DNA of 64,000 bases, taken from the sequence record KC690136. One strand, 5' to 3'. Position 1 is the first letter of the stretch. Every line of letters starts with the position of its first letter. Shown piece by piece: positions 51,697 to 62,785 of this stretch. The position numbers and the translations under genes were made by a program. Under the pieces are notes generated by a model. The model was not told the origin of the DNA. It did not search any database and worked only from the letters and a program-made list of their open reading frames with translations. The DNA comes from Escherichia phage JES2013.

Positions 51697-52067
51697 TGAT
51701 CGGTCTCCTTCTTGTTAAGTCTGAATACTGCAATAATAGCATTCCCAAGGTGCAGTGTCAAATCATTTCCAAGATACCACAACATTCCACGGTCATCTTT
51801 AATGAAAGGGTAACAATCTGGTGCCTTCCAGACATTGTACACTTTCCCAACCTGAAAGAAATCAGGCCCTGTTGGGATTTTGGTGCCAGGCCACACTTGG
51901 GATACCTGAACACACTCCACCTGCATAATAACAGGAATAGTCATGGATGTAAATGTTTTTGTTGGTTCTACTACCATAAAAGTCTCCTCTTTGCTTAACA
52001 GCACCTCCCTGTGCTGATAGTTTACATTAGTGACAATCACCCCAGTTACGACCACACAAGTATTCAC
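51693..52067 (-). CDS. small protein, KDxxG..WF family
   Basis: KDDRGMLWYLGNDLTLHLG. Confidence 0.4.
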   Translation of the reverse strand: MNTCVVVTGVIVTNVNYQHREVLLSKEETFMVVEPTKTFTSMTIPVIMQVECVQVSQVWPGTKIPTGPDFFQVGKVYNVWKAPDCYPFIKDDRGMLWYLGNDLTLHLGNAIIAVFRLNKKETDQ

Positions 52068-54804
52068 CTGTGATCTGGAACGGGACTCCCATCATTTTAG
52101 AAGCTTGCCAGAAGCAATGTACCACCATCTCGCCCACAGGGCTCCAGATAAGTTCAAGCTTTCCGTCATCGTTCAGGATAGGATCGTACACCGTGTTTCC
52201 GTCTCTGTCAACCACTTCGTTTCCGTTTTCATCCTTGCGTGCCTTTTTGTACTTATGACCGTCGAACACATGAAGTTTGGCCTCCTGCTCTGCCTTAAAT
52301 GCTTCCAATTCTTCAATTGTGTCGAAGGTGTACACAGTCTTATACTTCGGTGTGTCAGGTACTTGAAGCTGATATTCGTCATGGTAATAGATAATACGAC
52401 GAACACCTTCATCGTACCACCCACGCTTCACCATTTGGTGGTGCATAAGTATCCCAACTAAGTCACACAGCGATGCACCACCATTCTGTTGGTATGCATT
52501 AAGTAAAGAGTGTTTAGATCGGGTCCAGATGGCATGACCATCAAAAGAGTAGATAAACTTCTTACCCGTTGCTTCCCAGAATTTCTCCAGATCCTCTTTA
52601 CGCCCCTTAAGACCAGGGTTGGCATCCCAAAGTGCATCGATCACCCTTTGTCCCAACTCTGGAGAGATGTCCAGCATATCTGCAACTTTATCTTTTTGTG
52701 CCCCGTACATAACCCCATACGTGATAGGTTTACCGTCGTTACGAGACACCTCTCTGCCTGCTACTTTTGTATATGCCTCAGCATTGTTTTGGTGTGCGTC
52801 CCCGTTACTTACAACATCATAATACAAGCCGTTGTCGAACTCAAAGGCACCCCAAGCCCCGATAAGCTGCTCTAAGTTGGACCCGTCAATACCGATCTCA
52901 AAGTATCCTGGAGGAACACCCCACAAGCTACGCATCTCTTTACCCATAACCACTTTAGGAGAGGGTTTAGGCATGTTTGCACAAATACTGTGTTTCTGTC
53001 TGGAAGTGTTTGTTAATCCAGAGCTTTTAGCAGGAAGCTTATGGTCAATCTTCAAACGTGGGTGATTAAGAAGACCAGTGTCAACCTTATCCTCCTTGAT
53101 TGGATCAAGTACCGATCTGCGGTTTCGCAATGATAACCATAAGACGATATCTTTAGCCATCTCTCCGTTCAATTTTTCAAGATTCGGACACAGGTGTCCA
53201 AACGTATCTTTCAGTTGCGGAGAAGTAATAAGTGCCCTAGCTTTTCTACGTATTTTCCCGAATACTTCCTTTTTAATCCTTTCGGAGTTAGGAAAGCTTC
53301 GGAACTTGTGCACGGTTGTCTGGAACTTAGCATCAGTTTTGTTCCAGAAGTTGATAATTAGGTCACAATACTCTGACTCTAAAAGCTCGTCCATATATGC
53401 ATATACTCGTGCATCAACATCTGCATCAGGTAGAGCTTTCTTCTTGCTGTCTTTAGTTACATCCTTAGTTCTCCACATTGTCGGAAGCCAACCAGCACTG
53501 ATCAGGTATCGCTTAATGTCGTCCTGATTGCTGATTTTCATAGGTATCTTGCAGTCCGGCATTCGCTTCTGCTGTAGATCACTTATTGCCTGATCCATTA
53601 GCTCTTTAGGTAAAGGTTGTGGTGTGGAGGTGCCCTTAATATAACCTCTCAAGAAATCAGCCATCTTGTCGGGGTCTTTGCAGCCCATCTCTTCGCACCA
53701 TTTTATCCCCATCTTGCTGACATCTCCTGTGGAGGTAAATGCTCGCTTAGGCGGGGCTTTGAACTCTAAAGCGCTCATGTCTACAGGATAGCCAAGCTTA
53801 TCTTTTAACCATTTCCAACCATTATTGGAGATTGTCCCATCTTGGTTAAACGGCTTTTCAGGGAACTTGGGCCGCTGAGACATTGACAGCTCTTTTAAAG
53901 GTAGTTGTGGTTCAACACGATCAGCTATTTCTTTCATCCACGCATCACAACGGTCACGTAAAGCAATAGCTCCATCTATGTCAAAATACACACCCTGACG
54001 GGCCTGCAGCTCCATCAGGAAGTGCTGCAGCATGCCTCGGCGTAGTGCGTTCTTCCAGGTGATCTTCTTGAACCCTTTCGGCTTCTCTTTGGCAGGATCG
54101 TACATAAAGTTCTGCATGTCAGATTTGCCGTAGAATACACCTTTTGATTCCGCTACCAGCTCTTTCCAGAGCAGCTCCTGGATGATAACGTCCTCGAATA
54201 CACGATCCACATACTTCCACAATGGAAGATCGCGCCAGTCATCAATTTGAACTTTCTGGTTACCAAGGGCGTAGCCCCATGCCATAAGGCCGTGAGGACC
54301 AACAGGCTGCATTTTCTTAGTAACCGGGTTGAATACAGAGTCCGGACAACCTTTTGGTAAAGGGCGATCAGGCCACAAGATTCGGCTCATCGCCAACGTA
54401 TCAAACAGATTAACCTGGTGGTCGTTGATAGTCCCCATGCATTTAGGATCACGGAACATATCAAAATGAATACCGGATAATCTTTCCATCAGCATAAAGT
54501 CATAACTGTAGCAGTTATGGCAGTTCAAAGCTGTTGGTGACCAGTCGGAATTTCCTGTAAGCCAACCTTCCAACTCCGAAAAATCTGCTATGCGAACTTC
54601 AAAATCTTTATAAAGAGTTTTCTTTGCCAGAATAAAGTTCTTAGCCTTCTCTATATCCTCCTCGGAGTAGTGTGTGCGGTCATTTAGAGGAAGGAACAGC
54701 ATAAAACGGTTCTTATTCAGCTCTTTAAACAGGCCGCAATGATAATAAAGATCTGGGTCTTCCAAGAGCCCGGAGGCCTCCAGATCGAAGCACCAATTAC
54801 TCAT
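52027..54804 (-). CDS. DNA polymerase, family A, with 3'-5' exonuclease domain
   Basis: N-terminal FDLEASG (Exo I); motif B R..GK...YG..YG (RNDGKPITYGVMYG); motif C YYHDE; 925 aa. Confidence 0.85.
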   Translation of the reverse strand: MSNWCFDLEASGLLEDPDLYYHCGLFKELNKNRFMLFLPLNDRTHYSEEDIEKAKNFILAKKTLYKDFEVRIADFSELEGWLTGNSDWSPTALNCHNCYSYDFMLMERLSGIHFDMFRDPKCMGTINDHQVNLFDTLAMSRILWPDRPLPKGCPDSVFNPVTKKMQPVGPHGLMAWGYALGNQKVQIDDWRDLPLWKYVDRVFEDVIIQELLWKELVAESKGVFYGKSDMQNFMYDPAKEKPKGFKKITWKNALRRGMLQHFLMELQARQGVYFDIDGAIALRDRCDAWMKEIADRVEPQLPLKELSMSQRPKFPEKPFNQDGTISNNGWKWLKDKLGYPVDMSALEFKAPPKRAFTSTGDVSKMGIKWCEEMGCKDPDKMADFLRGYIKGTSTPQPLPKELMDQAISDLQQKRMPDCKIPMKISNQDDIKRYLISAGWLPTMWRTKDVTKDSKKKALPDADVDARVYAYMDELLESEYCDLIINFWNKTDAKFQTTVHKFRSFPNSERIKKEVFGKIRRKARALITSPQLKDTFGHLCPNLEKLNGEMAKDIVLWLSLRNRRSVLDPIKEDKVDTGLLNHPRLKIDHKLPAKSSGLTNTSRQKHSICANMPKPSPKVVMGKEMRSLWGVPPGYFEIGIDGSNLEQLIGAWGAFEFDNGLYYDVVSNGDAHQNNAEAYTKVAGREVSRNDGKPITYGVMYGAQKDKVADMLDISPELGQRVIDALWDANPGLKGRKEDLEKFWEATGKKFIYSFDGHAIWTRSKHSLLNAYQQNGGASLCDLVGILMHHQMVKRGWYDEGVRRIIYYHDEYQLQVPDTPKYKTVYTFDTIEELEAFKAEQEAKLHVFDGHKYKKARKDENGNEVVDRDGNTVYDPILNDDGKLELIWSPVGEMVVHCFWQASKMMGVPFQITGEYLCGRNWGDCH

Positions 54805-55535
54805 ACTGTCTCCTCCTGTGTCTTCTCAGCATTCTTTCTTGCAGCTATTGCATCGTCCCTGTTCTTGAAATACCCAAGGCATTTCCTTTTACCATCTACA
54901 TAAATTCTGGCTACCCATCTTTCATGGGTTTTATCCCAATTCACCCCTGAGCAACCGCTGGTGTTATTATACTGCACGGCTCTTCCACTCTTGTGCGAAA
55001 AACCATTATCTTCGAAGAACTTTCTTGCCCACTCTGCCTCTTCAAAAGTTCTGTACTGGCCTAGCCAGACCCTTTCACCTACAGAGTCTGTGCCTTGAGC
55101 TACCCACGCCTCTCTTTCTTCAGAATAGTGCACCCCGACCCTGCCAGATTTGTTGTTGCTACGAGGTATCTTGCAACTTTTCTTTTTGTTATCTGTAGGT
55201 TCGAGTAGTTGCAAATTTTGAATACTGTTGTCAGCCACACCACCTGTTTCCCTTATCTCCTTGATGTGGTCAACCTCATACCCTTCTGGTACAGGACCGT
55301 TAAACATTTCCCAGATTATAACGTGGGCACCTTTAGTGCAATGCTTTCCTAGACTAACCACAGGCCTGCCATCAGCATCTTGCCCCTTGTCAGCTCTGGA
55401 GCCTGCTGAAGTTTTAACATATCCTACACCGCTGCCTGCCAGAATGTCTATCTTCCAAAAAAGATTTTGACCGTCATACTCCAATATTTCTGACCACAAG
55501 TGATTGGCTACACAGTGATCTCTGAACTCGTTCAT
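54801..55535 (-). CDS. HNH homing endonuclease with AP2-type DNA-binding repeats
   Basis: HNH core EVDHIKEIRETGG...NLQLL; two AP2-like repeats (GVHYSEEREAWVAQ..., GVNWDKTHERWVARI...); sits between polymerase and primase-helicase. Confidence 0.6.
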   Translation of the reverse strand: MNEFRDHCVANHLWSEILEYDGQNLFWKIDILAGSGVGYVKTSAGSRADKGQDADGRPVVSLGKHCTKGAHVIIWEMFNGPVPEGYEVDHIKEIRETGGVADNSIQNLQLLEPTDNKKKSCKIPRSNNKSGRVGVHYSEEREAWVAQGTDSVGERVWLGQYRTFEEAEWARKFFEDNGFSHKSGRAVQYNNTSGCSGVNWDKTHERWVARIYVDGKRKCLGYFKNRDDAIAARKNAEKTQEETV

Positions 55536-55593: not shown

Positions 55594-57672
55594 TTAAAAA
55601 GGTGTTTCATCATCCTCAAAACCAGGAACATGGTCAGAGGACGGATCATCGTACTGGAGGTCTTCCTGCGTGTCAACAGGCTTAACAGTAGGAGTTACAA
55701 CCTTATCAGCCACAACCTTACCCATAGGTGTTTCTACAACTGCATGCTCCTGATCCTCAAACATAGCCTGAGGTCTCCAAACAACCTCCCCACCTTCTCC
55801 ATCTGTAAACATTTGCATTTCTTTGTCCCAGTACCAATTACTGGCATCATGGAACTTACCTGTATGTGGGTCCATAACCAAAGTGTCTGCAATACCTAAA
55901 GTTTTTGCTGGACGGTTTTTAAGACCTACCAGTCGGACACGCCCACGAGAACGATCCACCATTTCTTCGGCCTCGACACCTATGACTACCCAACTCAACT
56001 GTTCAAGCCCAGCCGATCCTCGCAAATTCTCTTTTCGCACAGGATACCAGAAAGGTAACGGGTTACCATCCTTGTCCTTAGGAGGCACAATCTCTGTACG
56101 TTTGAGGTGAGCGATCACCAAGATAAACACATTGAACTGCTTACAAAACGCAGCCAGCTGGGTCATAGCCATGTCCAGTTCTTTTCGCTCATCCTTAACA
56201 TTAAGCCCCGAAATTACCATGGACAGGTGATCCAGCACAATATAACGGCAATGGTACAGGCAAACCATTTGCTTAAGCTTGGTAATCAACTCGTCCACCG
56301 GAATAGACCCGAAATGTTTGAACACTTTGATTTTTCCAGCTTTTGCCCATGATTGGTGAATCTCTGCGTGTTCTTGATCAGTTAAAAACTGGCTAGGATC
56401 TTCAACAAACTCTTTAACATCAAACCCTAGCTGGTTTGCATACAAGGAGTTAATTGCTTCCTCTGGGTCCTCCTCAAGATGGATCATGCATAGACGATCA
56501 TCCTCTTCATAGTCATCGGCCTTCGGGCATGTCGGGTCCATCAAGTATCTTGCAATACAATGTTCCAGTTTTTTAGCTACAGTTGTTTTACCGCCCCCTG
56601 ATGGCCCTGTAAGCATTACGAGTGTCCCTTTGTGCAAGCCTTTTAGCATTTTTTGCAGTTTTGGAAACTCTGCGCTGATATCTACCCCGTTGGAAGTCTT
56701 TTTCCGCAAAGATTCGATAGAGAAGTCTTCTAAATCCGACACAGCATCAGGCACATACTTAACAGGATGCCGGAACATGTTTACAATATCTTCCAGCTTT
56801 TTAGCCTTTAGCATGTCACGGATATCTTTTACACCGTCAGGATCGTTTACCTCACCGGGGTATTCTACGTGGTAAACGTTATCAGCCATCAAAAATGCTG
56901 CGATATTGTGCGTGGCCTCAACACCTTTAATGACGTGTTTTTGCTTCTCTACCTCGTTAGCTGCATCGTTATCCATTGCCAGCACAACTGTTCCATAGCT
57001 ACGGATAAACTTCTCATTGTTTGCAAAAGTATCTACTGCGTTTGCACATCCACAGTTAATTCCAACAAAAGGCAGGCATGGTTTTCCTGCCAGATCGCCA
57101 CCGTTGATAACTGCATCGATCCCGTCCTGGACCTCTTTAGCCCACTGTTTCACCTTTGCCGGGGCTTTAGCGTTGGTGAGAATCCCTTTTACTTGTATCT
57201 GATATGCAGCCTGCCATGCTGCAATAACATCACCTTCTCCCTCACAAACGTTAATCTGCTTACGGTTGTTGGAAGATGCACACAGCTTTTGACCAAACAT
57301 CTGAGAGTTAGCCTTTACTATGCCAACAACGGAGAAATGGCCTCTTTGCTCTTTAGGAATCGTCCAGTCACGCTTTTTGAAACCGGACAGATTTCCGTAG
57401 CGGTCGTAATATGGGAAATATGTTGCAGTGACTGTCACACCATCTTCTTGGGATAATGCTGATCGCACACCAAAATATTGTGCAGCCATCAGACCGATAT
57501 TTTGTTGTGGGACAGGGACAATTTTAGTATTTTCTAAAACAGTCTCTACAGTTTCAACTTCTTTTTCATCACGATAGTCTCGTTTCACACTTCCCCCACT
57601 TTTATACTTAGTTGCTTTCGGGTTTGGCTCACCGAAACGGTTGTATGCAGATGCCATAAATTTACTTCCCAT
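55594..57672 (-). CDS. bifunctional primase-helicase (Toprim + DnaB-like helicase)
   Basis: Toprim-like EGEGD; Walker A GPSGGGKTT in C-terminal half; 692 aa. Confidence 0.7.
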   Translation of the reverse strand: MGSKFMASAYNRFGEPNPKATKYKSGGSVKRDYRDEKEVETVETVLENTKIVPVPQQNIGLMAAQYFGVRSALSQEDGVTVTATYFPYYDRYGNLSGFKKRDWTIPKEQRGHFSVVGIVKANSQMFGQKLCASSNNRKQINVCEGEGDVIAAWQAAYQIQVKGILTNAKAPAKVKQWAKEVQDGIDAVINGGDLAGKPCLPFVGINCGCANAVDTFANNEKFIRSYGTVVLAMDNDAANEVEKQKHVIKGVEATHNIAAFLMADNVYHVEYPGEVNDPDGVKDIRDMLKAKKLEDIVNMFRHPVKYVPDAVSDLEDFSIESLRKKTSNGVDISAEFPKLQKMLKGLHKGTLVMLTGPSGGGKTTVAKKLEHCIARYLMDPTCPKADDYEEDDRLCMIHLEEDPEEAINSLYANQLGFDVKEFVEDPSQFLTDQEHAEIHQSWAKAGKIKVFKHFGSIPVDELITKLKQMVCLYHCRYIVLDHLSMVISGLNVKDERKELDMAMTQLAAFCKQFNVFILVIAHLKRTEIVPPKDKDGNPLPFWYPVRKENLRGSAGLEQLSWVVIGVEAEEMVDRSRGRVRLVGLKNRPAKTLGIADTLVMDPHTGKFHDASNWYWDKEMQMFTDGEGGEVVWRPQAMFEDQEHAVVETPMGKVVADKVVTPTVKPVDTQEDLQYDDPSSDHVPGFEDDETPF

Positions 57673-58456
57673 TAATTCTGCTCCTTACTACAGGCTCGTT
57701 TGCTAAGAATACGGCTTTTGCCCAGCCACGTGGTGTGAGGCTTCGAATCATCTTCGTTCTTGCACTCTTTCCACCCAGCTTGGCGTGTTGCATGGAATAC
57801 CCGCTAACCACGTCAACTATTTGCGGGACAGGTTTTGTGGCCGGGATTATAAATCCATTACCTATCCAGCCGCAAGTTATTTTTGGATAGGCATCACGTG
57901 GAGCTATAAATTCAGGAAACCATGGGTTTACATCATCTTCCGGTAAATACCCGCCATAGTCAGAAGGATGAAAACGGTAATCAGGTTTGCGCCACAGTGT
58001 GGACATAACACCTACAGGATTCTCTACATGCCACGGGCAATCGTAAATCTCTCCCAGCTCTTCCGCAACCCGAGCATCCCTTACAGCATTAATTTGGATC
58101 ATGGGGTCCTTAGCCAGCTTTTTCTTAAAATGTGCAGCACCTGATACCGCTAAATGCGTGCACGGAGGAAATGCAAGAATAAAGTCTGGAGCTGGGTACA
58201 TGCAAAAAGTTTCCTGAGGGAACCATGGGTCAATCCAATAATCCACATAGTGAATGTTGGGATGATCGGTTATCACCTCTGCATAACTGCCGTGATCAGC
58301 ACCTTCTGCATTAAAGCACAGGCACAGATACCCAGCTTTTGCCCAGTCAATGACTGCACCACCAGATCCGTCAAATAGGCTCCACACAACACCTTTGTGG
58401 TAGTGTTCTTTGTAGATAAATTTCAATTTGCTGTCTCCTAATGCAAAAAGCCCCAC
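57662..58456 (-). CDS. DNA cytosine-C5 methyltransferase-like protein
   Basis: Motif I FDGSGG, motif IV PPCTHLAVSG (catalytic Cys), motif VI HVENPVG, in canonical order. Confidence 0.45.
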   Translation of the reverse strand: MGLFALGDSKLKFIYKEHYHKGVVWSLFDGSGGAVIDWAKAGYLCLCFNAEGADHGSYAEVITDHPNIHYVDYWIDPWFPQETFCMYPAPDFILAFPPCTHLAVSGAAHFKKKLAKDPMIQINAVRDARVAEELGEIYDCPWHVENPVGVMSTLWRKPDYRFHPSDYGGYLPEDDVNPWFPEFIAPRDAYPKITCGWIGNGFIIPATKPVPQIVDVVSGYSMQHAKLGGKSARTKMIRSLTPRGWAKAVFLANEPVVRSRINGK

Positions 58457-58477
58457 CCTTTCGGGCAGGGCCTAGTG

Positions 58478-58960
58478 TTAAACCCGGATACCTATTGTAT
58501 ACTCGGTGGATACCAATGTCAAATCTAAATTTAAAATTTCTTGCATCTCATAATATGCGTCCAGGGTGAGATACATTTCCCCATCCTTTTCTACATACTT
58601 GTCCAAGTGCTTGAGGCATTTCGGATAACTATCGAGTGCAGCTTTCAGACACTCAAACTCTGTGCTGTTGATGAGTCCTTCCATCTTGGCTACCCGTTCT
58701 GGGGTAACGATAGCACTGTAGTGAGATTTAGCTTCCTGAATGCAATGGGTCCAAGCATCAACTTTCTCTTCGAAAAGCCCGAAGAATTTCTTTTTGGTGA
58801 GCTTCAGATTCTTTAAGTGCTTAAGCACTCGGTTGCCGATCACAGCCACATCACGAAACTTAAGGATCACTTTGTCGATATCCTCGCGGCCTATTTTCAC
58901 AAAGCAAGCCTCACACATTTCAGGAGCTGCGTAACCTACTTTCCACATAAAATCTGACAT
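58478..58960 (-). CDS. hypothetical protein
   Basis: Track ORF. Confidence 0.45.
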   Translation of the reverse strand: MSDFMWKVGYAAPEMCEACFVKIGREDIDKVILKFRDVAVIGNRVLKHLKNLKLTKKKFFGLFEEKVDAWTHCIQEAKSHYSAIVTPERVAKMEGLINSTEFECLKAALDSYPKCLKHLDKYVEKDGEMYLTLDAYYEMQEILNLDLTLVSTEYTIGIRV

Positions 58961-58972
58961 AACACTATCTCC

Positions 58973-59371
58973 TTATTCTTCCTGAAAAGCAACGATATCA
59001 TATGAACTTGCAGACGATCCTGGTGAAGAATGACTCCAGTCTAGGTCATCAGAGTAGTCAGCGTACTGTGCACCACTACGTAGTTTATATTTTACCCACT
59101 TACCTGGTGCAGGGTTTTCACCACCTTCCCATACTTCCCAGCCTTCTGGCAGGCCGTCCTGGGAATAGTCATCCACCTCACTAATAATCTTAGGGTTTGG
59201 CACCAAGATCCCTGCAGGCTCTTCCTTCCGGATAAGTGTCCACACAACGTAGGTGTCTGAGCAGGCGCATGATAGCAAAGTATATCCACTATTCAGAACT
59301 TCTGCAAGCTCTTTTTCAGCATCTTCCAATTTGGTTAAGTGGTATTGGAGAATCTTCACACCTGTAATCAT
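58973..59371 (-). CDS. hypothetical protein
   Basis: Track ORF. Confidence 0.45.
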   Translation of the reverse strand: MITGVKILQYHLTKLEDAEKELAEVLNSGYTLLSCACSDTYVVWTLIRKEEPAGILVPNPKIISEVDDYSQDGLPEGWEVWEGGENPAPGKWVKYKLRSGAQYADYSDDLDWSHSSPGSSASSYDIVAFQEE

Positions 59372-59715
59372 CAGAAACCTCCCACTTCTTCGGCAAATGC
59401 AGCTGCTGTCGTCGCTGCATCCAGATAGGACTCTAGTTCACGGGCTGCACGTTTGTAAATTGAGTGGCGAATATCGTTTGGCAGTTGGTGGAAGTCCACC
59501 TCTTCACCGTTGTGGTAAACATGCACATCAGTGATCTGTCTAAATCCGTAATAGTCAACATCAGAATCACGGCACTCCGGGTCTGGCAACTGGACAACTG
59601 CCTGAGCTTCTACAGTGAACATATCGTCAAGTTCGAAATCGATTTCAAAAGTGTATGGTTTATAACGTTTCATCATTTGATTGTACTCTTTATTGATCAG
59701 ACTTATCTTTCGCAA
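59371..59715 (-). CDS. hypothetical protein
   Basis: Track ORF. Confidence 0.45.
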   Translation of the reverse strand: MRKISLINKEYNQMMKRYKPYTFEIDFELDDMFTVEAQAVVQLPDPECRDSDVDYYGFRQITDVHVYHNGEEVDFHQLPNDIRHSIYKRAARELESYLDAATTAAAFAEEVGGF

Positions 59716-61015
59716 TTAAGGTCGGGGCAAGTTTGTAATAACGGAAGCCACCACCACCTTGCCAGTTTACAGACTTAGAAATACCACCTTGATCTTCCCC
59801 ATCGATCACTTTTTCCAAGCGCGGAATAATATGGGTATGGCAATGATCACCAATCTCGATGGAGATCCAACGTCTTTTCATCTTGTGAGCTACAGCGGCA
59901 GTAGTTCCCGAACCACCGAATGAATCCAATACCAAATCACCTTCTCGCGTACACATTTCGAAAATCCGCTTCAAAAGCGCTTCTGGTTTTTTCCCATTTT
60001 TGAAACTAACGCCGCCTTCATTTGCTATTCCATTCCAACTAATGTCTGTCCAAACATCAGTTATTAGTTCCGCAGGTTGCATATCACCGTCAATTTCCAA
60101 AAGCCTGTTGGAGTAAAAGACCATTTGCCTACCATTTGCGATATAAAATCCTTCAACATCCTCATTTGGATGTACATAAACCTTATCCCTATCTTTCTTT
60201 GACTTCTCTATAGTTTCTTTTCTCTTTATTTTAGCACCACCACCAATTGCAACAGATTGAAATACACGTTCTGCATTATCAATTGCAAATTGTGCTAATT
60301 CATCATCGAATGTGTCAGGCAGTTTTTTCTTGGCTTCTTTTGCATCTTTATAGCCATTGGCCTTTGCAAACGCATCGGCAATACCGCACCACGTCCAATT
60401 TTTATAATGATCATCCGGGTTTAATAGGTATTTGTTATATCCGGTATCATACCCTTTAGGTATATAGATTTTGTTAAGCGGTTTCTGGGTGCGATCTTTT
60501 GCATATACAAGCAAAAAGTTTGCTGTGGAGAAAACTGTGGCTCCTGTTGCCTTAAATCCCGAAGGGGAATTTGTGGTCATCGATATGGTATTTAACTGAT
60601 TTGCACGACCAAAAATCTCGTCCATCAAAACTTTTAAATACGCCATTTCGCAATCATCTAAGTGAACGAATATTACCCCGTCATCACTTAGAAGATTACG
60701 AATTATTTCTAACCTATCCCTCATTAAGCCCAACCAAATGGAATGCTCCAGACTATCATCGTAGTGCTCAAAAGCCCTCCCGGTGTTGAATGGTGGGTCT
60801 ATGTAAACACACTTCACTTTGCCTGCGTACTCTTGCTCTAGCGCCTTCAATGCTAATAAGTTATCTCCAAAAATCAGCTTATTATCAAAAATATCGTTTT
60901 CGGTAACTCTCTGGCTGTGGTAAGACTTACTCGAATCTTCTAACAAAATGTGCGGCTCTAATTTTTTGCGCTCGTTTTTACCTATCCAGGTAAGTTCTAA
61001 TTTGGTTTTGCTCAT
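59690..61015 (-). CDS. DNA methyltransferase, beta-class (N6-adenine or N4-cytosine)
   Basis: Motif IV DPPF (VYIDPPFNTG) precedes motif I FGGSGTT. Confidence 0.7.
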   Translation of the reverse strand: MSKTKLELTWIGKNERKKLEPHILLEDSSKSYHSQRVTENDIFDNKLIFGDNLLALKALEQEYAGKVKCVYIDPPFNTGRAFEHYDDSLEHSIWLGLMRDRLEIIRNLLSDDGVIFVHLDDCEMAYLKVLMDEIFGRANQLNTISMTTNSPSGFKATGATVFSTANFLLVYAKDRTQKPLNKIYIPKGYDTGYNKYLLNPDDHYKNWTWCGIADAFAKANGYKDAKEAKKKLPDTFDDELAQFAIDNAERVFQSVAIGGGAKIKRKETIEKSKKDRDKVYVHPNEDVEGFYIANGRQMVFYSNRLLEIDGDMQPAELITDVWTDISWNGIANEGGVSFKNGKKPEALLKRIFEMCTREGDLVLDSFGGSGTTAAVAHKMKRRWISIEIGDHCHTHIIPRLEKVIDGEDQGGISKSVNWQGGGGFRYYKLAPTLIAKDKSDQ

Positions 61016-61076: not shown

Positions 61077-61418
61077 CTACTCAAGGTCTTCAGAGTCAAG
61101 CTCAAAAAGAATCAAACTGTGCATGCCTGCAGAGAGATCAACACACCCTGCAACAATAAGGGTCTGATAGTAAGGTTCAGCACCCTCGATGTCTTCGTTA
61201 AAATCCACAACAAGGTAGTCACCTTTGTTAAAGGTGTATTTGTCCGATGTGAATGCAAAACCTGCCCAGTCCCCTACTGCAGGATCTTTATCAGTCACCT
61301 TTGTTAGCAGTAGATCTTTTTCACGAGATCTTTTAGTAAAATCGTGAATCACAACATCCTTCTCTTCAGGAGTTGGATTGCCACACACGTAGTTAACGAT
61401 ATTTCTCCACAAACTCAT
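61077..61418 (-). CDS. hypothetical protein
   Basis: Track ORF. Confidence 0.45.
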   Translation of the reverse strand: MSLWRNIVNYVCGNPTPEEKDVVIHDFTKRSREKDLLLTKVTDKDPAVGDWAGFAFTSDKYTFNKGDYLVVDFNEDIEGAEPYYQTLIVAGCVDLSAGMHSLILFELDSEDLE

Positions 61419-62785
61419 ACGTCCCCCTCTTCGGCTCTGGTTTCAAAATCTTTCCTGACAATTTTGTCTAAGTCAGGGAATGTTGTATTGTAAAACTCTA
61501 CGACTCGCGGGTCAACAATAATGTCAACTTCTCTTAGTGGACGCAACAAGTTTATTCCTTGTATTGTCTTAACTCTGCTCAAAGCGACATACGTCATCCC
61601 AGGAGAGAAAGCTCCGTTCTTTCCAAGGTCTAGGTTGTAACAATCTAGCGTAAGTCCTTGACTTTTATGAGATGTTACGGCGTACCCAGATTTCAGAGGA
61701 AGTTGCTTGTATGACCCAATCACTACCCTCTCTATAAACTTCTCCATCTTCCTTTCTGCAATGTTGTATCTCTGAGATGGCTTATACTCGTTATTCTCCC
61801 ACAACCTCTGCTCTATGTCAACCTGTGTTCCATCTTCAAGCTCTACCACCACCGCCTTGTTCTTAAATTTAACAATTGTGGCACGTGTTCCGTTAACATA
61901 ATAAGGTACTTTGTGCGTCGGGTCAACATCGTTGGCGGTTATCATAACTTTCATGCCAATTTTCAACTTCATCTCCTGCTCAACTGGCAGGGTGGAGGGA
62001 AACTTACCCTTCATTTCCCCAGTGTATACCTTCTCCGGGGCGTTGATGGCATCATAGAACCTTCTGTTCACTTCCTCTGCTTGTTTGTTGGTGGCGCAAA
62101 TTGTGAGAGCGTCTGTTGGTACACCGCCTTTGTAACAGCGAGCATTAAGTTCTGCTACAACCTCTTTTATGCGACGACCCTCACGAACACAGTTGAGCAT
62201 TGTGGCAAATCGAATAGACTCCTGTCGGAACTGATCTATTAGGGCTATGTTGTGGAGGTCAAGCTCTTTCCAAGATTCGGTATAGCAACACAGGTCTGTA
62301 TGGTAGAAGTTGAAGTAGGCTTCCTTCTCCATAGAAGAGACAACAGGAGGTGCCTGGTAAAAATCGCCAAACAATATGACCTGTATGCCTCCGAAAGGTT
62401 TGTCATTTTTTCGAAGGAAGCGAAGTTTCCTATCCATCTCTATAAACTTATCAGCACGGATCATAGAGATTTCATCGATAATCAGGATGGTAAATGCCTT
62501 GCTTTTCAAAGGCTTTGCTGTTTTTGCCCTTATTGCGGTCCAGTCTGACTCCATGCTCACACCTGCTGCAAGATCGAAGGTTCGGTGTGCTGTTGCTCCA
62601 TTAACGTTTAAAGCGGCTACCCCTGTCGGGGCAACCGTTATGCAAGAGTCTCCATACATTGACTGGATCATGTTGATGAGGTACGTCTTCCCACAACCTG
62701 CGGGTCCTGAAACGAAGACATTCTCACCGCTCATGATTGCAACGAGGGCAGCATCTGTGCCTACATCATACTGCCCTTTTTCCAT
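61415..62785 (-). CDS. SF1 DNA helicase (Pif1/RecD/Dda-like)
   Basis: Walker A GPAGCGKTY; Walker B IIDEISM; C-terminal SQGLTLD. Confidence 0.7.
   Translation of the reverse strand: MEKGQYDVGTDAALVAIMSGENVFVSGPAGCGKTYLINMIQSMYGDSCITVAPTGVAALNVNGATAHRTFDLAAGVSMESDWTAIRAKTAKPLKSKAFTILIIDEISMIRADKFIEMDRKLRFLRKNDKPFGGIQVILFGDFYQAPPVVSSMEKEAYFNFYHTDLCCYTESWKELDLHNIALIDQFRQESIRFATMLNCVREGRRIKEVVAELNARCYKGGVPTDALTICATNKQAEEVNRRFYDAINAPEKVYTGEMKGKFPSTLPVEQEMKLKIGMKVMITANDVDPTHKVPYYVNGTRATIVKFKNKAVVVELEDGTQVDIEQRLWENNEYKPSQRYNIAERKMEKFIERVVIGSYKQLPLKSGYAVTSHKSQGLTLDCYNLDLGKNGAFSPGMTYVALSRVKTIQGINLLRPLREVDIIVDPRVVEFYNTTFPDLDKIVRKDFETRAEEGDV

What the first reader, a model, noticed from the sequence alone, without database searches (positions are those of the whole stretch)
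57662..58456. Compact C5-cytosine methyltransferase-like protein in the replication operon
Motifs I (FDGSGG), IV (PPC) and VI (ENP) appear in canonical order in only 264 aa, leaving little room for a target-recognition domain. It may be a minimal orphan C5-MTase or a related DNA-modifying enzyme.
Basis: partly seen in the sequence, partly recalled or inferred. Interest (0 to 1): 0.5.

Follow-up and report, generated by a model that had tools for sequence, protein, structure and literature searches.

The report
Compact phage DNA cytosine-C5 methyltransferase
This gene encodes a very small DNA cytosine-C5 methyltransferase from a phage family that is already annotated and has one biochemically tested relative, so the call is correct but ordinary; its DNA target sequence is still unknown.

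Summary
The ORF is real. It lies on the minus strand of an rV5-like coliphage (E. coli O157 typing phage 4, 100% identical). The likely start is TTG at 58426 (254 aa), not GTG at 58456.

It hits phrog_757 "DNA methyltransferase" (E=5.6e-87) and has relatives in about 1,500 phage genomes. Orthologs 98% identical in BASEL phages are already annotated "Dcm-like C5 cytosine methyltransferase". It is 54% identical over its full length to the Bas06/K42-type "Dcm". A published study showed by LC-MS that K42 Dcm makes 5mC and triggers retron Ec86/Eco1.

The compactness is family-wide (median 234 aa). The proteins start at β1 and end just after motif IX. They have no separate motif X, and the only hypervariable segment is about 17 aa long.

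Still open: the recognition sequence. CCWGG was assumed in the literature, not mapped, and this protein carries a different variable loop from the tested enzyme.

The parts
57662..58426 (-). Coding sequence of the compact C5-cytosine DNA methyltransferase. The most likely product is 254 aa from TTG at 58426. Residue numbers in this report count from the GTG at 58456, so they are 10 higher than numbering from the TTG.
   Evidence: ORF. GenBank CDS AKE45322 uses these coordinates. phrog_757 hit at E=5.6e-87. 54% identity to Bas06 Dcm-like MTase. AF2 model with pLDDT 87 and C5-MTase fold.
58427..58456 (-). Upstream 30 nt that the finding included as coding (GTG-initiated extension). Probably untranslated leader.
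   Evidence: The GTG lies within the hairpin stem. Residues 1-7 have pLDDT below 50, and the N-terminus is not conserved in the family.
58435..58438 (-). GGAG Shine-Dalgarno, 8 nt upstream of the TTG start.
   Evidence: Read directly from the sequence.
58358..58375 (-). Motif I, FDGSGG (residues 28-33). This is the SAM-binding loop after strand β1.
   Evidence: Sequence. It aligns to motif I of DNMT3B and HaeIII. In 117 aligned sequences, position 28 is F/Y/C and G32 is present in 86.
58160..58168 (-). Motif IV, PPC (residues 97-99). Cys99 is the catalytic nucleophile.
   Evidence: C99 is conserved in 109/117. It corresponds to C82 of K42/Bas06 Dcm, which was mutated in the inactive quadruple mutant.
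58016..58024 (-). Motif VI, ENP (residues 145-147). Glu145 contacts the target cytosine (N3/N4).
   Evidence: E145 is conserved in 114/117 and P147 in 115/117. It corresponds to E128 of K42 Dcm.
57878..57970 (-). Highly conserved segment of about 30 aa between strands β6 and β7 (residues 163-193, HPSDYGGYLPEDD...PRDAYPK). It includes the invariant D188, Y190 and K192, and is a candidate DNA-binding element.
   Evidence: Secondary structure of the model. Conservation. K192 corresponds to K175 of K42 Dcm.
57776..57826 (-). Hypervariable, indel-rich loop (residues 211-227). It is the only variable stretch after β7 and is a candidate minimal target-recognition loop. This protein carries the 'GYSxQHxKLGG' variant. 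K42/Bas06 carries 'NPGWAKxGG'.
   Evidence: Mean top-residue frequency is 0.08 and 36% of positions are gaps across 117 sequences. Among close homologs, 90 are class A and 28 are class B.
57728..57745 (-). Motif IX-like RSLTPR (residues 238-243).
   Evidence: Compare E. coli Dcm RRLTPRE and HhaI RKLHPRE. The motifs are collinear in the hhalign alignment. R238 is conserved in 107/117 and P242 in 109/117.
57662..57672 (-). 11-nt overlap between the MTase stop codon and the ATG of the primase/helicase gene. This suggests translational coupling and co-transcription with replication genes.
   Evidence: An AAGGAG Shine-Dalgarno for the helicase lies inside the MTase 3' end.
58448..58473 (-). Terminator-like GC-rich hairpin with a T-run, between the upstream gene's stop codon and the MTase ribosome-binding site.
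   Evidence: (11 pairs, 7 of them G-C).
58494..58522 (-). Near-consensus sigma-70-type promoter (TTGACA-17-TACAAT, 11 of 12 matches) inside the 3' end of the upstream gene.
   Evidence: This is a pattern match only. The total number of promoter-like sites in the region is no higher than in shuffled sequence.

Best explanation
The gene encodes an S-adenosylmethionine-dependent DNA cytosine-C5 methyltransferase of the compact phage family phrog_757. Databases call this family 'Dcm-like'.

Mechanism (inferred from the established chemistry of C5-MTases). The enzyme flips its target cytosine out of the helix. Cys99 (motif IV, PPC) attacks C6. Glu145 (motif VI, ENP) stabilises or protonates N3/N4. 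The methyl group of SAM, held by motif I (FDGSGG) and residue 49 (motif II), is transferred to C5. β-elimination then releases 5-methylcytosine.

Architecture. The enzyme is a stripped-down catalytic domain. It begins at β1 and ends a few residues after motif IX. It has no separate motif X and no large target-recognition domain. DNA recognition presumably falls to three elements: a conserved insert of about 30 aa between β6 and β7, a basic GGKSxRTKxIRSLTPR segment, and one hypervariable loop of about 17 aa.

Biology. The gene is co-expressed with the replication genes. It most likely methylates replicating phage DNA at a specific short site, which would block a subset of host restriction enzymes. 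It has no nuclease partner. The same activity can be a liability, because a relative's activity is what retron Ec86/Eco1 senses.

Status of each step. Shown here: family membership, fold, conservation of the catalytic residues, and gene context. Shown in the literature for a 54%-identical relative: 5mC formation and retron triggering. Inferred: activity of this particular protein, its anti-restriction role, and its target sequence, which is unknown. The confidence given is for the enzyme identity. I put CCWGG as its site at only about 0.3.
For: phrog_757 'DNA methyltransferase', E=5.6e-87, full length.

Relatives occur in 1,503 phage records. 98%-identical orthologs in BASEL Vequintavirus phages are annotated 'Dcm-like C5 cytosine methyltransferase'.

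The protein is 54% identical (E=4e-86) over its full length to Bas06_0055. That gene is 711 bp and has C82, E128, K175 and K176 at exactly the positions published for K42 Dcm. K42 Dcm raised 5mC in msDNA by LC-MS and triggered retron Ec86; its quadruple mutant did neither (bioRxiv 10.1101/2023.08.16.553469). Later papers cite this as established (PMC12916289).

PF00145 is hit by 22 of 40 family members, 3 of them above the gathering score.

Across 116 representatives at 50% identity or less: C99 109/117, E145 114/117, N146 108/117, P147 115/117, K192 108/117, and position 49 is Asp in 103/117.

The neighbours are replication genes and no nuclease is found.
Against: This particular protein has no Pfam or NCBIfam hit.

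Sequence searches against solved structures are not significant (E=0.27 with the family profile).

Profile comparison with E. coli Dcm is not significant (E=0.14-0.21).

It lacks a canonical motif X, which in classical enzymes lines the cofactor pocket. Position 49 is Asn rather than the usual acidic residue. Position 193 is Ile where K42 has Lys176.

No methylation data exist for any rV5-like phage in the searched literature.

BASEL reports that Vequintavirinae are 'exceptionally susceptible' to the six RM systems tested (PMC8594841). Any protection the enzyme gives is therefore narrow.

The published evidence for the relative comes from an over-expression experiment in a dcm+ host.
Confidence: 0.9

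Rival explanations
1. It is a C5-cytosine transferase that uses a different donor, for example carboxy-SAM as CmoX does. It would install 5-carboxymethylcytosine or another group as a handle for hypermodification, rather than a methyl group.
Against: The 54%-identical K42 enzyme produced 5mC by LC-MS in E. coli. The CmoX signature is SPPC plus an Arg replacing HhaI N304. This family has FPPC (F96 in 103/117) and ends in a conserved Ala-Asn (N253 in 80/117), not Arg. No CmoA, CmoY or ligase homologs are found among the neighbours. DNMT3B scores higher than CmoX.
Confidence: 0.03
2. It is an active C5-MTase, but its main role is not protection from restriction. It could mark replicated DNA for packaging or for control of replication and transcription timing, or it could act on host DNA.
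For: Vequintavirinae remain highly sensitive to all six RM systems tested in BASEL. Across Drexlerviridae, no pattern linked MTase genes to restriction resistance (PMC8594841). The gene is tightly coupled to the primase/helicase gene here, and it lies next to helicase genes in several unrelated phage groups. Nearly all enterobacterial hosts already carry Dcm (my own knowledge).
Against: None of the six RM systems tested is known to be blocked by a narrow 5mC motif, so the BASEL result does not test the relevant enzymes. Orphan phage MTases are classically anti-restriction (established knowledge). The hypervariable loop suggests diversifying specificity, as expected in an arms race.
Confidence: 0.15
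3. It methylates RNA (DNMT2-like tRNA m5C) or single-stranded nucleic acid, rather than duplex phage DNA.
Against: DNA MTases (DNMT3B, CmoX, HhaI, HaeIII, MpeI) all score higher than DNMT2. The msDNA target proposed is its duplex DNA stem. The replication-module context also argues against it.
Confidence: 0.02
4. It is an inactive relic or a chance ORF whose motifs carry no function.
For: No Pfam or NCBIfam hit for this protein. The deposited record annotates it 'hypothetical protein'.
Against: 114 phage records match at 95% protein identity or more. 2,067 cluster representatives have E<=0.001. The catalytic residues are nearly invariant. The fold is predicted with confidence.
Confidence: 0.01

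Closest known systems
Phage K42 / KarlJaspers (Bas06_0055) 'Dcm', 236 aa. It is the trigger of retron Ec86 (Eco1).
   Same: Same family (phrog_757): 54% identity over the full length, E=4e-86. It shares the compact architecture and the catalytic Cys, Glu and Lys (C82/E128/K175 there, C99/E145/K192 here). Both are orphan genes located in or near replication genes.
   Different: The variable loop differs: GYSxQHxKLGG here, NPGWAKxGG in K42/Bas06. K176 of K42 is Ile193 here. The host phage differs: a 140-kb Vequintavirus myovirus versus a 51-kb Drexlerviridae siphovirus. No experimental data exist for the rV5-type protein.
Bas51 WalterGehring bas51_0074 and other Vequintavirus orthologs, annotated 'Dcm-like C5 cytosine methyltransferase'.
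   Same: Orthologs at 98-99.6% identity, in the same position between the small ORFs and the primase/helicase gene.
   Different: Essentially nothing differs except the annotation. The record matching this window calls the gene 'hypothetical protein'.
DNMT3A/DNMT3B catalytic domain (eukaryotic de novo C5-MTases).
   Different: Only 12-15% identical. DNMT3 keeps motif X and is about 280 aa. It works as a dimer or tetramer with DNMT3L. Oligomeric state could not be tested here.
E. coli Dcm / M.EcoRII (CCWGG), 472 aa.
   Same: Same chemistry and same motif order (I, IV, VI, IX). The RRLTPRE and RSLTPRG motifs resemble each other.
   Different: No significant sequence similarity (hhalign E=0.14-0.21). 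Dcm is nearly twice as long. It has an N-terminal extension, a large TRD, motif X (FGNS) and a vsr partner gene. The name 'Dcm-like' therefore does not justify assuming CCWGG specificity.
Classical bacterial type II C5-MTases (M.HhaI, M.HaeIII; Pfam PF00145).
   Different: The classical enzymes are about 325-330 aa, with a TRD of about 80-100 aa and motif X. This family has a median length of 234 aa and ends about 6 residues after the motif IX helix.
CmoX (Synechococcus phage S-B43), a DNA cytosine C5-carboxymethyltransferase.
   Different: CmoX has the SPPC motif, a motif-X Arg that binds the carboxylate, and CmoA/CmoY neighbours. None of these is present here.

Membership tests
DNA cytosine-C5 methyltransferase superfamily (PF00145 / DNMT fold) | Motif I (FxGxG) SAM-binding loop after β1. 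| tested here: met
   F28-D-G30-S-G32-G33 follows strand 23-27 of the model. It aligns with motif I of DNMT3B and HaeIII. In the wider family, position 28 is F/Y/C and G32 is present in 86/117.
DNA cytosine-C5 methyltransferase superfamily (PF00145 / DNMT fold) | Motif II acidic residue at the end of β2, which binds the SAM ribose. | tested here: inconclusive
   Position 49 is Asn in this protein and in its close relatives. It is Asp in 103/117 diverse family representatives.
DNA cytosine-C5 methyltransferase superfamily (PF00145 / DNMT fold) | Motif IV Pro-Cys with the catalytic cysteine. | tested here: met
   P97-P98-C99. C99 is conserved in 109/117. It corresponds to C82 of K42 Dcm.
DNA cytosine-C5 methyltransferase superfamily (PF00145 / DNMT fold) | Motif VI ENV with the catalytic glutamate. 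| tested here: met
   E145-N146-P147 sits at the end of strand 142-147. Conservation is E 114/117, N 108/117 and P 115/117.
DNA cytosine-C5 methyltransferase superfamily (PF00145 / DNMT fold) | Motif VIII basic residues (QxRxR) on β7. | tested here: inconclusive
   No QxRxR motif is present. Conserved R187 (61/117), D188, Y190 and K192 (108/117) precede strand 194-199. K175/K176 of K42 were mutated only as part of a quadruple mutant.
DNA cytosine-C5 methyltransferase superfamily (PF00145 / DNMT fold) | Motif IX (RxxTxRE...). | tested here: met
   R238-S-L-T-P-R243 compares with Dcm RRLTPRE and HhaI RKLHPRE. The motifs are collinear in hhalign, although that alignment is not statistically significant.
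DNA cytosine-C5 methyltransferase superfamily (PF00145 / DNMT fold) | Motif X (GNxV helix) after motif IX, completing the cofactor pocket. | tested here: not met
   Family proteins end a median of 6 residues (IQR 3-12) after N253. The hhalign alignment stops at Dcm residue 412, before the Dcm FGNS motif. The conserved terminal Ala-Asn253 might substitute for motif X. This could not be tested without model coordinates.
DNA cytosine-C5 methyltransferase superfamily (PF00145 / DNMT fold) | A sizeable variable target-recognition domain between motifs VIII and IX. | tested here: not met
   About 40 residues separate β7 from motif IX. Only residues 211-227 are variable.
DNA cytosine-C5 methyltransferase superfamily (PF00145 / DNMT fold) | Score above the Pfam PF00145 gathering threshold. 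| tested here: not met
   This protein has no PF00145 hit. 22 of 40 relatives hit at E<=1, and 3 exceed the 22-bit threshold, over profile positions 4-94 only.
DNA cytosine-C5 methyltransferase superfamily (PF00145 / DNMT fold) | C5-MTase three-dimensional fold. | tested here: met
DNA cytosine-C5 methyltransferase superfamily (PF00145 / DNMT fold) | SAM-dependent formation of 5-methylcytosine in DNA. | not testable with these tools
   Published for the 54%-identical K42 Dcm (LC-MS). Not measured for this protein.
Compact phage 'Dcm-like' family (phrog_757; K42/Bas06 Dcm) | Full-length match to the family profile. | tested here: met
   phrog_757 E=5.6e-87, covering residues 10-261 of the protein and positions 3-226 of the 247-position profile.
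Compact phage 'Dcm-like' family (phrog_757; K42/Bas06 Dcm) | Full-length similarity to the experimentally tested member. | tested here: met
   54% identity, E=4e-86, to Bas06_0055. Its length (711 bp) and residue numbering match the published K42 Dcm. The K42 sequence itself was not available.
Compact phage 'Dcm-like' family (phrog_757; K42/Bas06 Dcm) | Compact single-domain architecture of about 220-260 aa. | tested here: met
   The protein is 254 aa. The median of 150 cluster representatives is 234 aa.
Compact phage 'Dcm-like' family (phrog_757; K42/Bas06 Dcm) | Same variable-loop type as the tested enzyme, as a proxy for the same target sequence. | tested here: not met
   This protein has GYSMQHAKLGG (class A; 90 of 120 close homologs). 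Bas06 has NPGWAKTGG (class B; 28 of 120).
E. coli Dcm / M.EcoRII orthologs (CCWGG-specific) | Significant sequence similarity to Dcm, including its TRD. | tested here: not met
   hhalign E=0.21 against a single Dcm sequence and E=0.14 against a small profile. Dcm is 472 aa; this protein is 254 aa.
E. coli Dcm / M.EcoRII orthologs (CCWGG-specific) | Adjacent vsr (very-short-patch repair) gene or EcoRII-type nuclease. | tested here: not met
   dcm overlaps vsr in K-12. No such domain is found among the neighbours here.
E. coli Dcm / M.EcoRII orthologs (CCWGG-specific) | Methylation of the inner C of CCWGG. | not testable with these tools
   For K42 Dcm this was assumed from the name and supported only indirectly, by mutating the msDNA stem. 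CCWGG is not depleted in the window (132 sites, O/E 0.91), which is uninformative.
CmoX carboxymethyltransferases | SPPC motif, an Arg in the motif-X position, and CmoA/CmoY neighbours. | tested here: not met
   The motif here is FPPC, there is no motif X, and the terminal conserved residue is Asn. The neighbours include no CmoA or amide ligase. The criteria come from PMC12783734.

The most novel reading that the evidence does not exclude
This family may be the smallest class of active DNA C5-methyltransferases. On this reading it works without motif X, and it reads its DNA site through a single hypervariable loop of about 17 aa plus a conserved β6-β7 insert. It may also act as an oligomer, as DNMT3 does. 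The rV5-type enzyme carries a different loop from the only tested member. It would then recognise a sequence other than CCWGG, and loop swaps would reprogram specificity.
Probability: 0.3. Interest if true: 0.45.

Novelty: already known. Interest (0 to 1): 0.18.

Why it matters
As a gene call it changes little. Orthologs are already annotated as C5-cytosine methyltransferases, and a family member has been shown to make 5mC and to trigger retron Ec86/Eco1. It does allow one 'hypothetical protein' (AKE45322) to be renamed.

Three practical points follow:

- rV5-like phages are candidates for phage therapy and typing. A phage-encoded 5mC activity affects their restriction profile, their sensitivity to methylation-dependent nucleases, and possibly to retron Eco1.
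- The name 'Dcm-like' invites an unjustified assumption of CCWGG specificity. There is no significant sequence similarity to Dcm.
- The family would be an attractive minimal scaffold (about 230 aa) for studying or engineering DNA recognition by C5-MTases, if its single variable loop proves to set specificity.

Tried and rejected
- **Pfam and NCBIfam scans of the protein itself:** no MTase hit. The identification came only from PHROGs, from scanning relatives, and from structure.
- **Sequence searches against PDB, single sequence and 40-sequence profile:** only sub-threshold hits to HaeIII and DNMT3B over motifs I-IV.
- **hhalign of the family against E. coli Dcm, alone and as a small profile with viral Dcm relatives and HhaI fragments:** collinear but not significant. 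The viral Dcm relatives I fetched were too similar to each other (64-100% identity) to make a strong profile.
- **Inferring the target site from oligonucleotide frequencies in the window:** CCWGG is neither depleted nor unusual (O/E 0.91). Many GC-rich 6-mers are absent. This says nothing specific about the enzyme.
- **Literature searches for methylome or restriction-digest data on rV5-like or Drexlerviridae phages:** nothing relevant found. The peer-reviewed version of the Ec86 paper is cited by others but is not in the library.
- **AFDB fold search:** unavailable.
- **Placement of the C-terminal helix and Asn253:** I could not inspect the model coordinates, so I could not decide whether they occupy the motif-X position.
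- **Considered and rejected:** carboxymethyltransferase, RNA methyltransferase, and inactive relic (see rivals).
Full report
**1. What is in the sequence**

The interval 57662-58456 holds one uninterrupted ORF on the minus strand, 264 codons counted from a GTG. The plus-strand frames are full of stops.

- FDGSGG at residues 28-33
- PPC at residues 97-99
- ENP at residues 145-147

The GTG at 58456 sits inside the stem of a terminator-like hairpin (58473-58448) that follows the upstream gene. Thirty nucleotides downstream, a TTG at 58426 is preceded by GGAG at a spacing of 8 nt. That TTG is the start used in the deposited record (254 aa, AKE45322) and in the 254-aa cluster representative P0001. 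The homolog P0002 begins with Met at the same alignment column. I take 57662-58426 as the gene.

Its stop codon overlaps the ATG (57672) of the next gene by 11 nt, and an AAGGAG for that gene lies inside the MTase 3' end.

**2. Where the window comes from, and the gene context**

The region is 100% identical to Escherichia coli O157 typing phage 4 (KP869102, Vequintavirus, rV5-like). It is 97-99% identical to about 120 other records.

All of the following lie on the minus strand:

- 61415-62785: a PIF1/RecD-like helicase
- 59690-61015: a PF01555 N6/N4 DNA methyltransferase
- three small ORFs of unknown function
- 57662-58426: the gene in question
- 55594-57672: a DnaB-like primase/helicase
- 54801-55535: an HNH-AP2 homing endonuclease
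- 52027-54804: DNA polymerase A

'Replication operon' is therefore a fair description. No restriction endonuclease or Vsr-like partner is found, so the MTase is an orphan.

**3. Family**

Pfam and NCBIfam give nothing for this protein. PHROGs gives phrog_757 'DNA methyltransferase' at E=5.6e-87 over the full length.

tblastn finds relatives in 1,503 phage records. These include Escherichia, Klebsiella, Salmonella, Shigella, Vibrio and Arthrobacter phages, among others. Their annotations range from 'hypothetical protein' to 'Dcm-like C5 cytosine methyltransferase'. In BASEL phage WalterGehring (Bas51), the ortholog in the same position is annotated 'Dcm-like C5 cytosine methyltransferase'.

The large protein collection returns 3,550 relatives, nearly all 220-260 aa. 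An exhaustive profile search returns 2,067 cluster representatives at E<=0.001, and the 150 listed have a median length of 234 aa.

When family members are scanned individually, 22 of 40 hit PF00145. Three exceed its gathering score, but only over motifs I-IV, at profile positions 4-94 of 324.

**4. Link to an experimentally tested enzyme**

A preprint on retron Ec86 (bioRxiv 10.1101/2023.08.16.553469) isolated escape mutants of phage K42, a relative of KarlJaspers/Bas06. All the escapers disrupted a 711-bp 'dcm' gene. Expressing that Dcm was toxic only when Ec86 was present. LC-MS showed high 5mC in msDNA with wild-type Dcm. It did not with a C82A/E128A/K175A/K176A mutant. Later papers treat this as established.

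I fetched KarlJaspers. Its bas06_0055 gene is exactly 711 bp and is annotated 'Dcm-like C5 cytosine methyltransferase'. It has C82, E128, K175 and K176 at the published positions. It aligns with the window protein over the full length at 54% identity, E=4e-86. The equivalents here are C99, E145, K192 and I193. The window protein is therefore a clear member of a family with demonstrated 5mC-forming activity.

**5. Structure**

An AlphaFold2 model built from a 40-sequence alignment is confident (pLDDT 87, pTM 0.87).

- Foldseek against the PDB places DNMT3A/3B catalytic domains first, at E about 3e-6.
- In the viral structure library, the nearest models are phage proteins named cytosine methylases. 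Other viral C5-MTases of about 200-250 aa also appear.

**6. Anatomy and conservation**

I aligned the query with 116 full-length representatives, each from a different 50%-identity cluster. Conservation out of 117 sequences:

| Residue | Conserved in |
|---|---|
| P97 | 108 |
| C99 | 109 |
| G106 | 116 |
| E145 | 114 |
| N146 | 108 |
| P147 | 115 |
| P164 | 116 |
| D188 | 108 |
| Y190 | 113 |
| K192 | 108 |
| W197 | 113 |
| R238 | 107 |
| P242 | 109 |

Position 49 is Asn here, but it is the canonical motif-II Asp in 103 of the 117.

The proteins begin a median of 4 residues before β1. They end a median of 6 residues after the conserved Asn253.

The RSLTPR segment resembles motif IX of Dcm (RRLTPRE) and HhaI (RKLHPRE). 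A non-significant but collinear hhalign alignment to Dcm pairs motifs I, IV, VI and IX. It stops before Dcm's motif X, FGNS. The family therefore has no separate motif X and no large TRD.

Two features stand out between motif VI and the C-terminus. The first is a strongly conserved insert of about 30 aa between β6 and β7. The second is a single hypervariable, indel-rich loop at residues 211-227, with a mean top-residue frequency of 0.08 and 36% gaps.

Among close homologs that loop comes in two forms. 'GYSxQHxKLGG' occurs in 90 of 120, including this protein. 'NPGWAKxGG' occurs in 28 of 120, including Bas06/K42. Most distant relatives have neither form.

**7. Mechanism**

The chemistry follows from the established mechanism of C5-MTases. 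Cys99 adds to C6 of a flipped cytosine. Glu145 handles N3/N4. The methyl group is transferred from SAM, and β-elimination follows. This is inference for this protein. It is supported by the residue conservation and by the loss of function in the K42 quadruple mutant.

The biological role is most likely site-specific self-methylation of replicating phage DNA to evade some restriction enzymes. That is inferred from the orphan status, the replication context and general knowledge of phage MTases.

The protection must be narrow. BASEL found Vequintavirinae 'exceptionally susceptible' to all six RM systems tested. It also found no simple link between MTase genes and restriction resistance in Drexlerviridae (PMC8594841).

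**8. What is not known**

The target sequence has not been established. The Ec86 preprint took CCWGG from E. coli Dcm by name. It supported this only by showing that changing CCTGG in the msDNA stem abolished defence. The experiments were done in dcm+ MG1655, where msDNA from the empty-vector control nevertheless had low 5mC.

The compact family has no significant sequence similarity to E. coli Dcm (E=0.14-0.21), so homology gives no basis for CCWGG. This protein also differs from the tested enzyme in the one variable loop. CCWGG frequency in the window (132 sites, O/E 0.91) is uninformative.

**9. Rivals**

A CmoX-like carboxymethyltransferase is unlikely. The relative makes 5mC. The CmoX signature (SPPC plus a motif-X Arg, with CmoA/CmoY neighbours; PMC12783734) is absent.

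RNA methylation and an inactive relic are also unlikely.

A role other than anti-restriction remains possible, and I give it about 0.15.

**10. Verdict**

The finding is already known at the level of family, annotation and activity of a relative. The residual interest lies in the unmapped specificity and in how such a minimal enzyme, lacking motif X and a TRD, recognises DNA.

Noticed in passing
window 54801-55535 (minus strand): An HNH-AP2 homing-endonuclease gene sits between DNA polymerase A and the primase/helicase gene, and overlaps the polymerase start. Most related phages match the query only from about window 55532 onward, so they lack this gene at this position. It looks like a mobile insertion. 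In Bas51 the polymerase gene itself is annotated as joined from two pieces around another homing endonuclease.
   Followed up: partly
window 58448-58522 (minus strand): A near-consensus sigma-70 promoter (TTGACA-17-TACAAT, 58522-58494) is followed within about 20 nt by a strong terminator-like hairpin (58473-58448). The MTase ribosome-binding site comes directly after that. A promoter firing straight into a terminator could be an attenuator or a 5' stabilising stem-loop. This was not examined.
   Followed up: no
window 59690-61015 (minus strand): A second orphan DNA methyltransferase of 441 aa (PF01555 N6_N4_Mtase, E=1.6e-42). Different records annotate it as BamHI methylase, N6-adenine MTase or type III Mod subunit. 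Its start overlaps the 3' end of... more precisely, its 3' end (59690-59715) overlaps the start of the 114-aa ORF 59371-59715 by 26 nt. That small ORF weakly hits phrog_1573 'DNA methyltransferase' (E=3.6e-5).
   Followed up: partly
whole window (64 kb): Strong avoidance of GC-rich 6-bp palindromes. GCCGGC, GGCGCC, CTCGAG, GTCGAC, GCTAGC, CGGCCG and CCGCGG all occur zero times, where 6-11 are expected from base composition. CTAG is at half its Markov expectation. GATC and CCWGG are not depleted.
   Followed up: partly
GenBank records MG065647, MG065658, MG065659, MG065661, MG065682 and others: Sixteen records named 'Campylobacter phage', with host given as Campylobacter jejuni, are 97-98% identical to this E. 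coli rV5-like phage over 7 kb. The likeliest reading is mislabelled or contaminating coliphage sequences.
   Followed up: no
protein P0266 (563 aa, from the representative search): A natural fusion of the compact C5-MTase (N-terminal part) with a complete D12-class Dam N6-adenine methyltransferase (PF02086, E=2.5e-48, residues 303-546). A few other representatives of 326-414 aa carry unassigned N-terminal extensions.
   Followed up: partly
BFVD hits A0A2P0VN45 (Tetraselmis virus 1, 218 aa) and C3U2K5 (Lactococcus phage P087, 212 aa): Other very short (about 200-220 aa) viral proteins annotated as cytosine or DNA methylases match the model at TM about 0.5-0.6 and 14-17% identity. Miniaturised C5-MTases may therefore have arisen, or persisted, in several virus lineages.
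   Followed up: no
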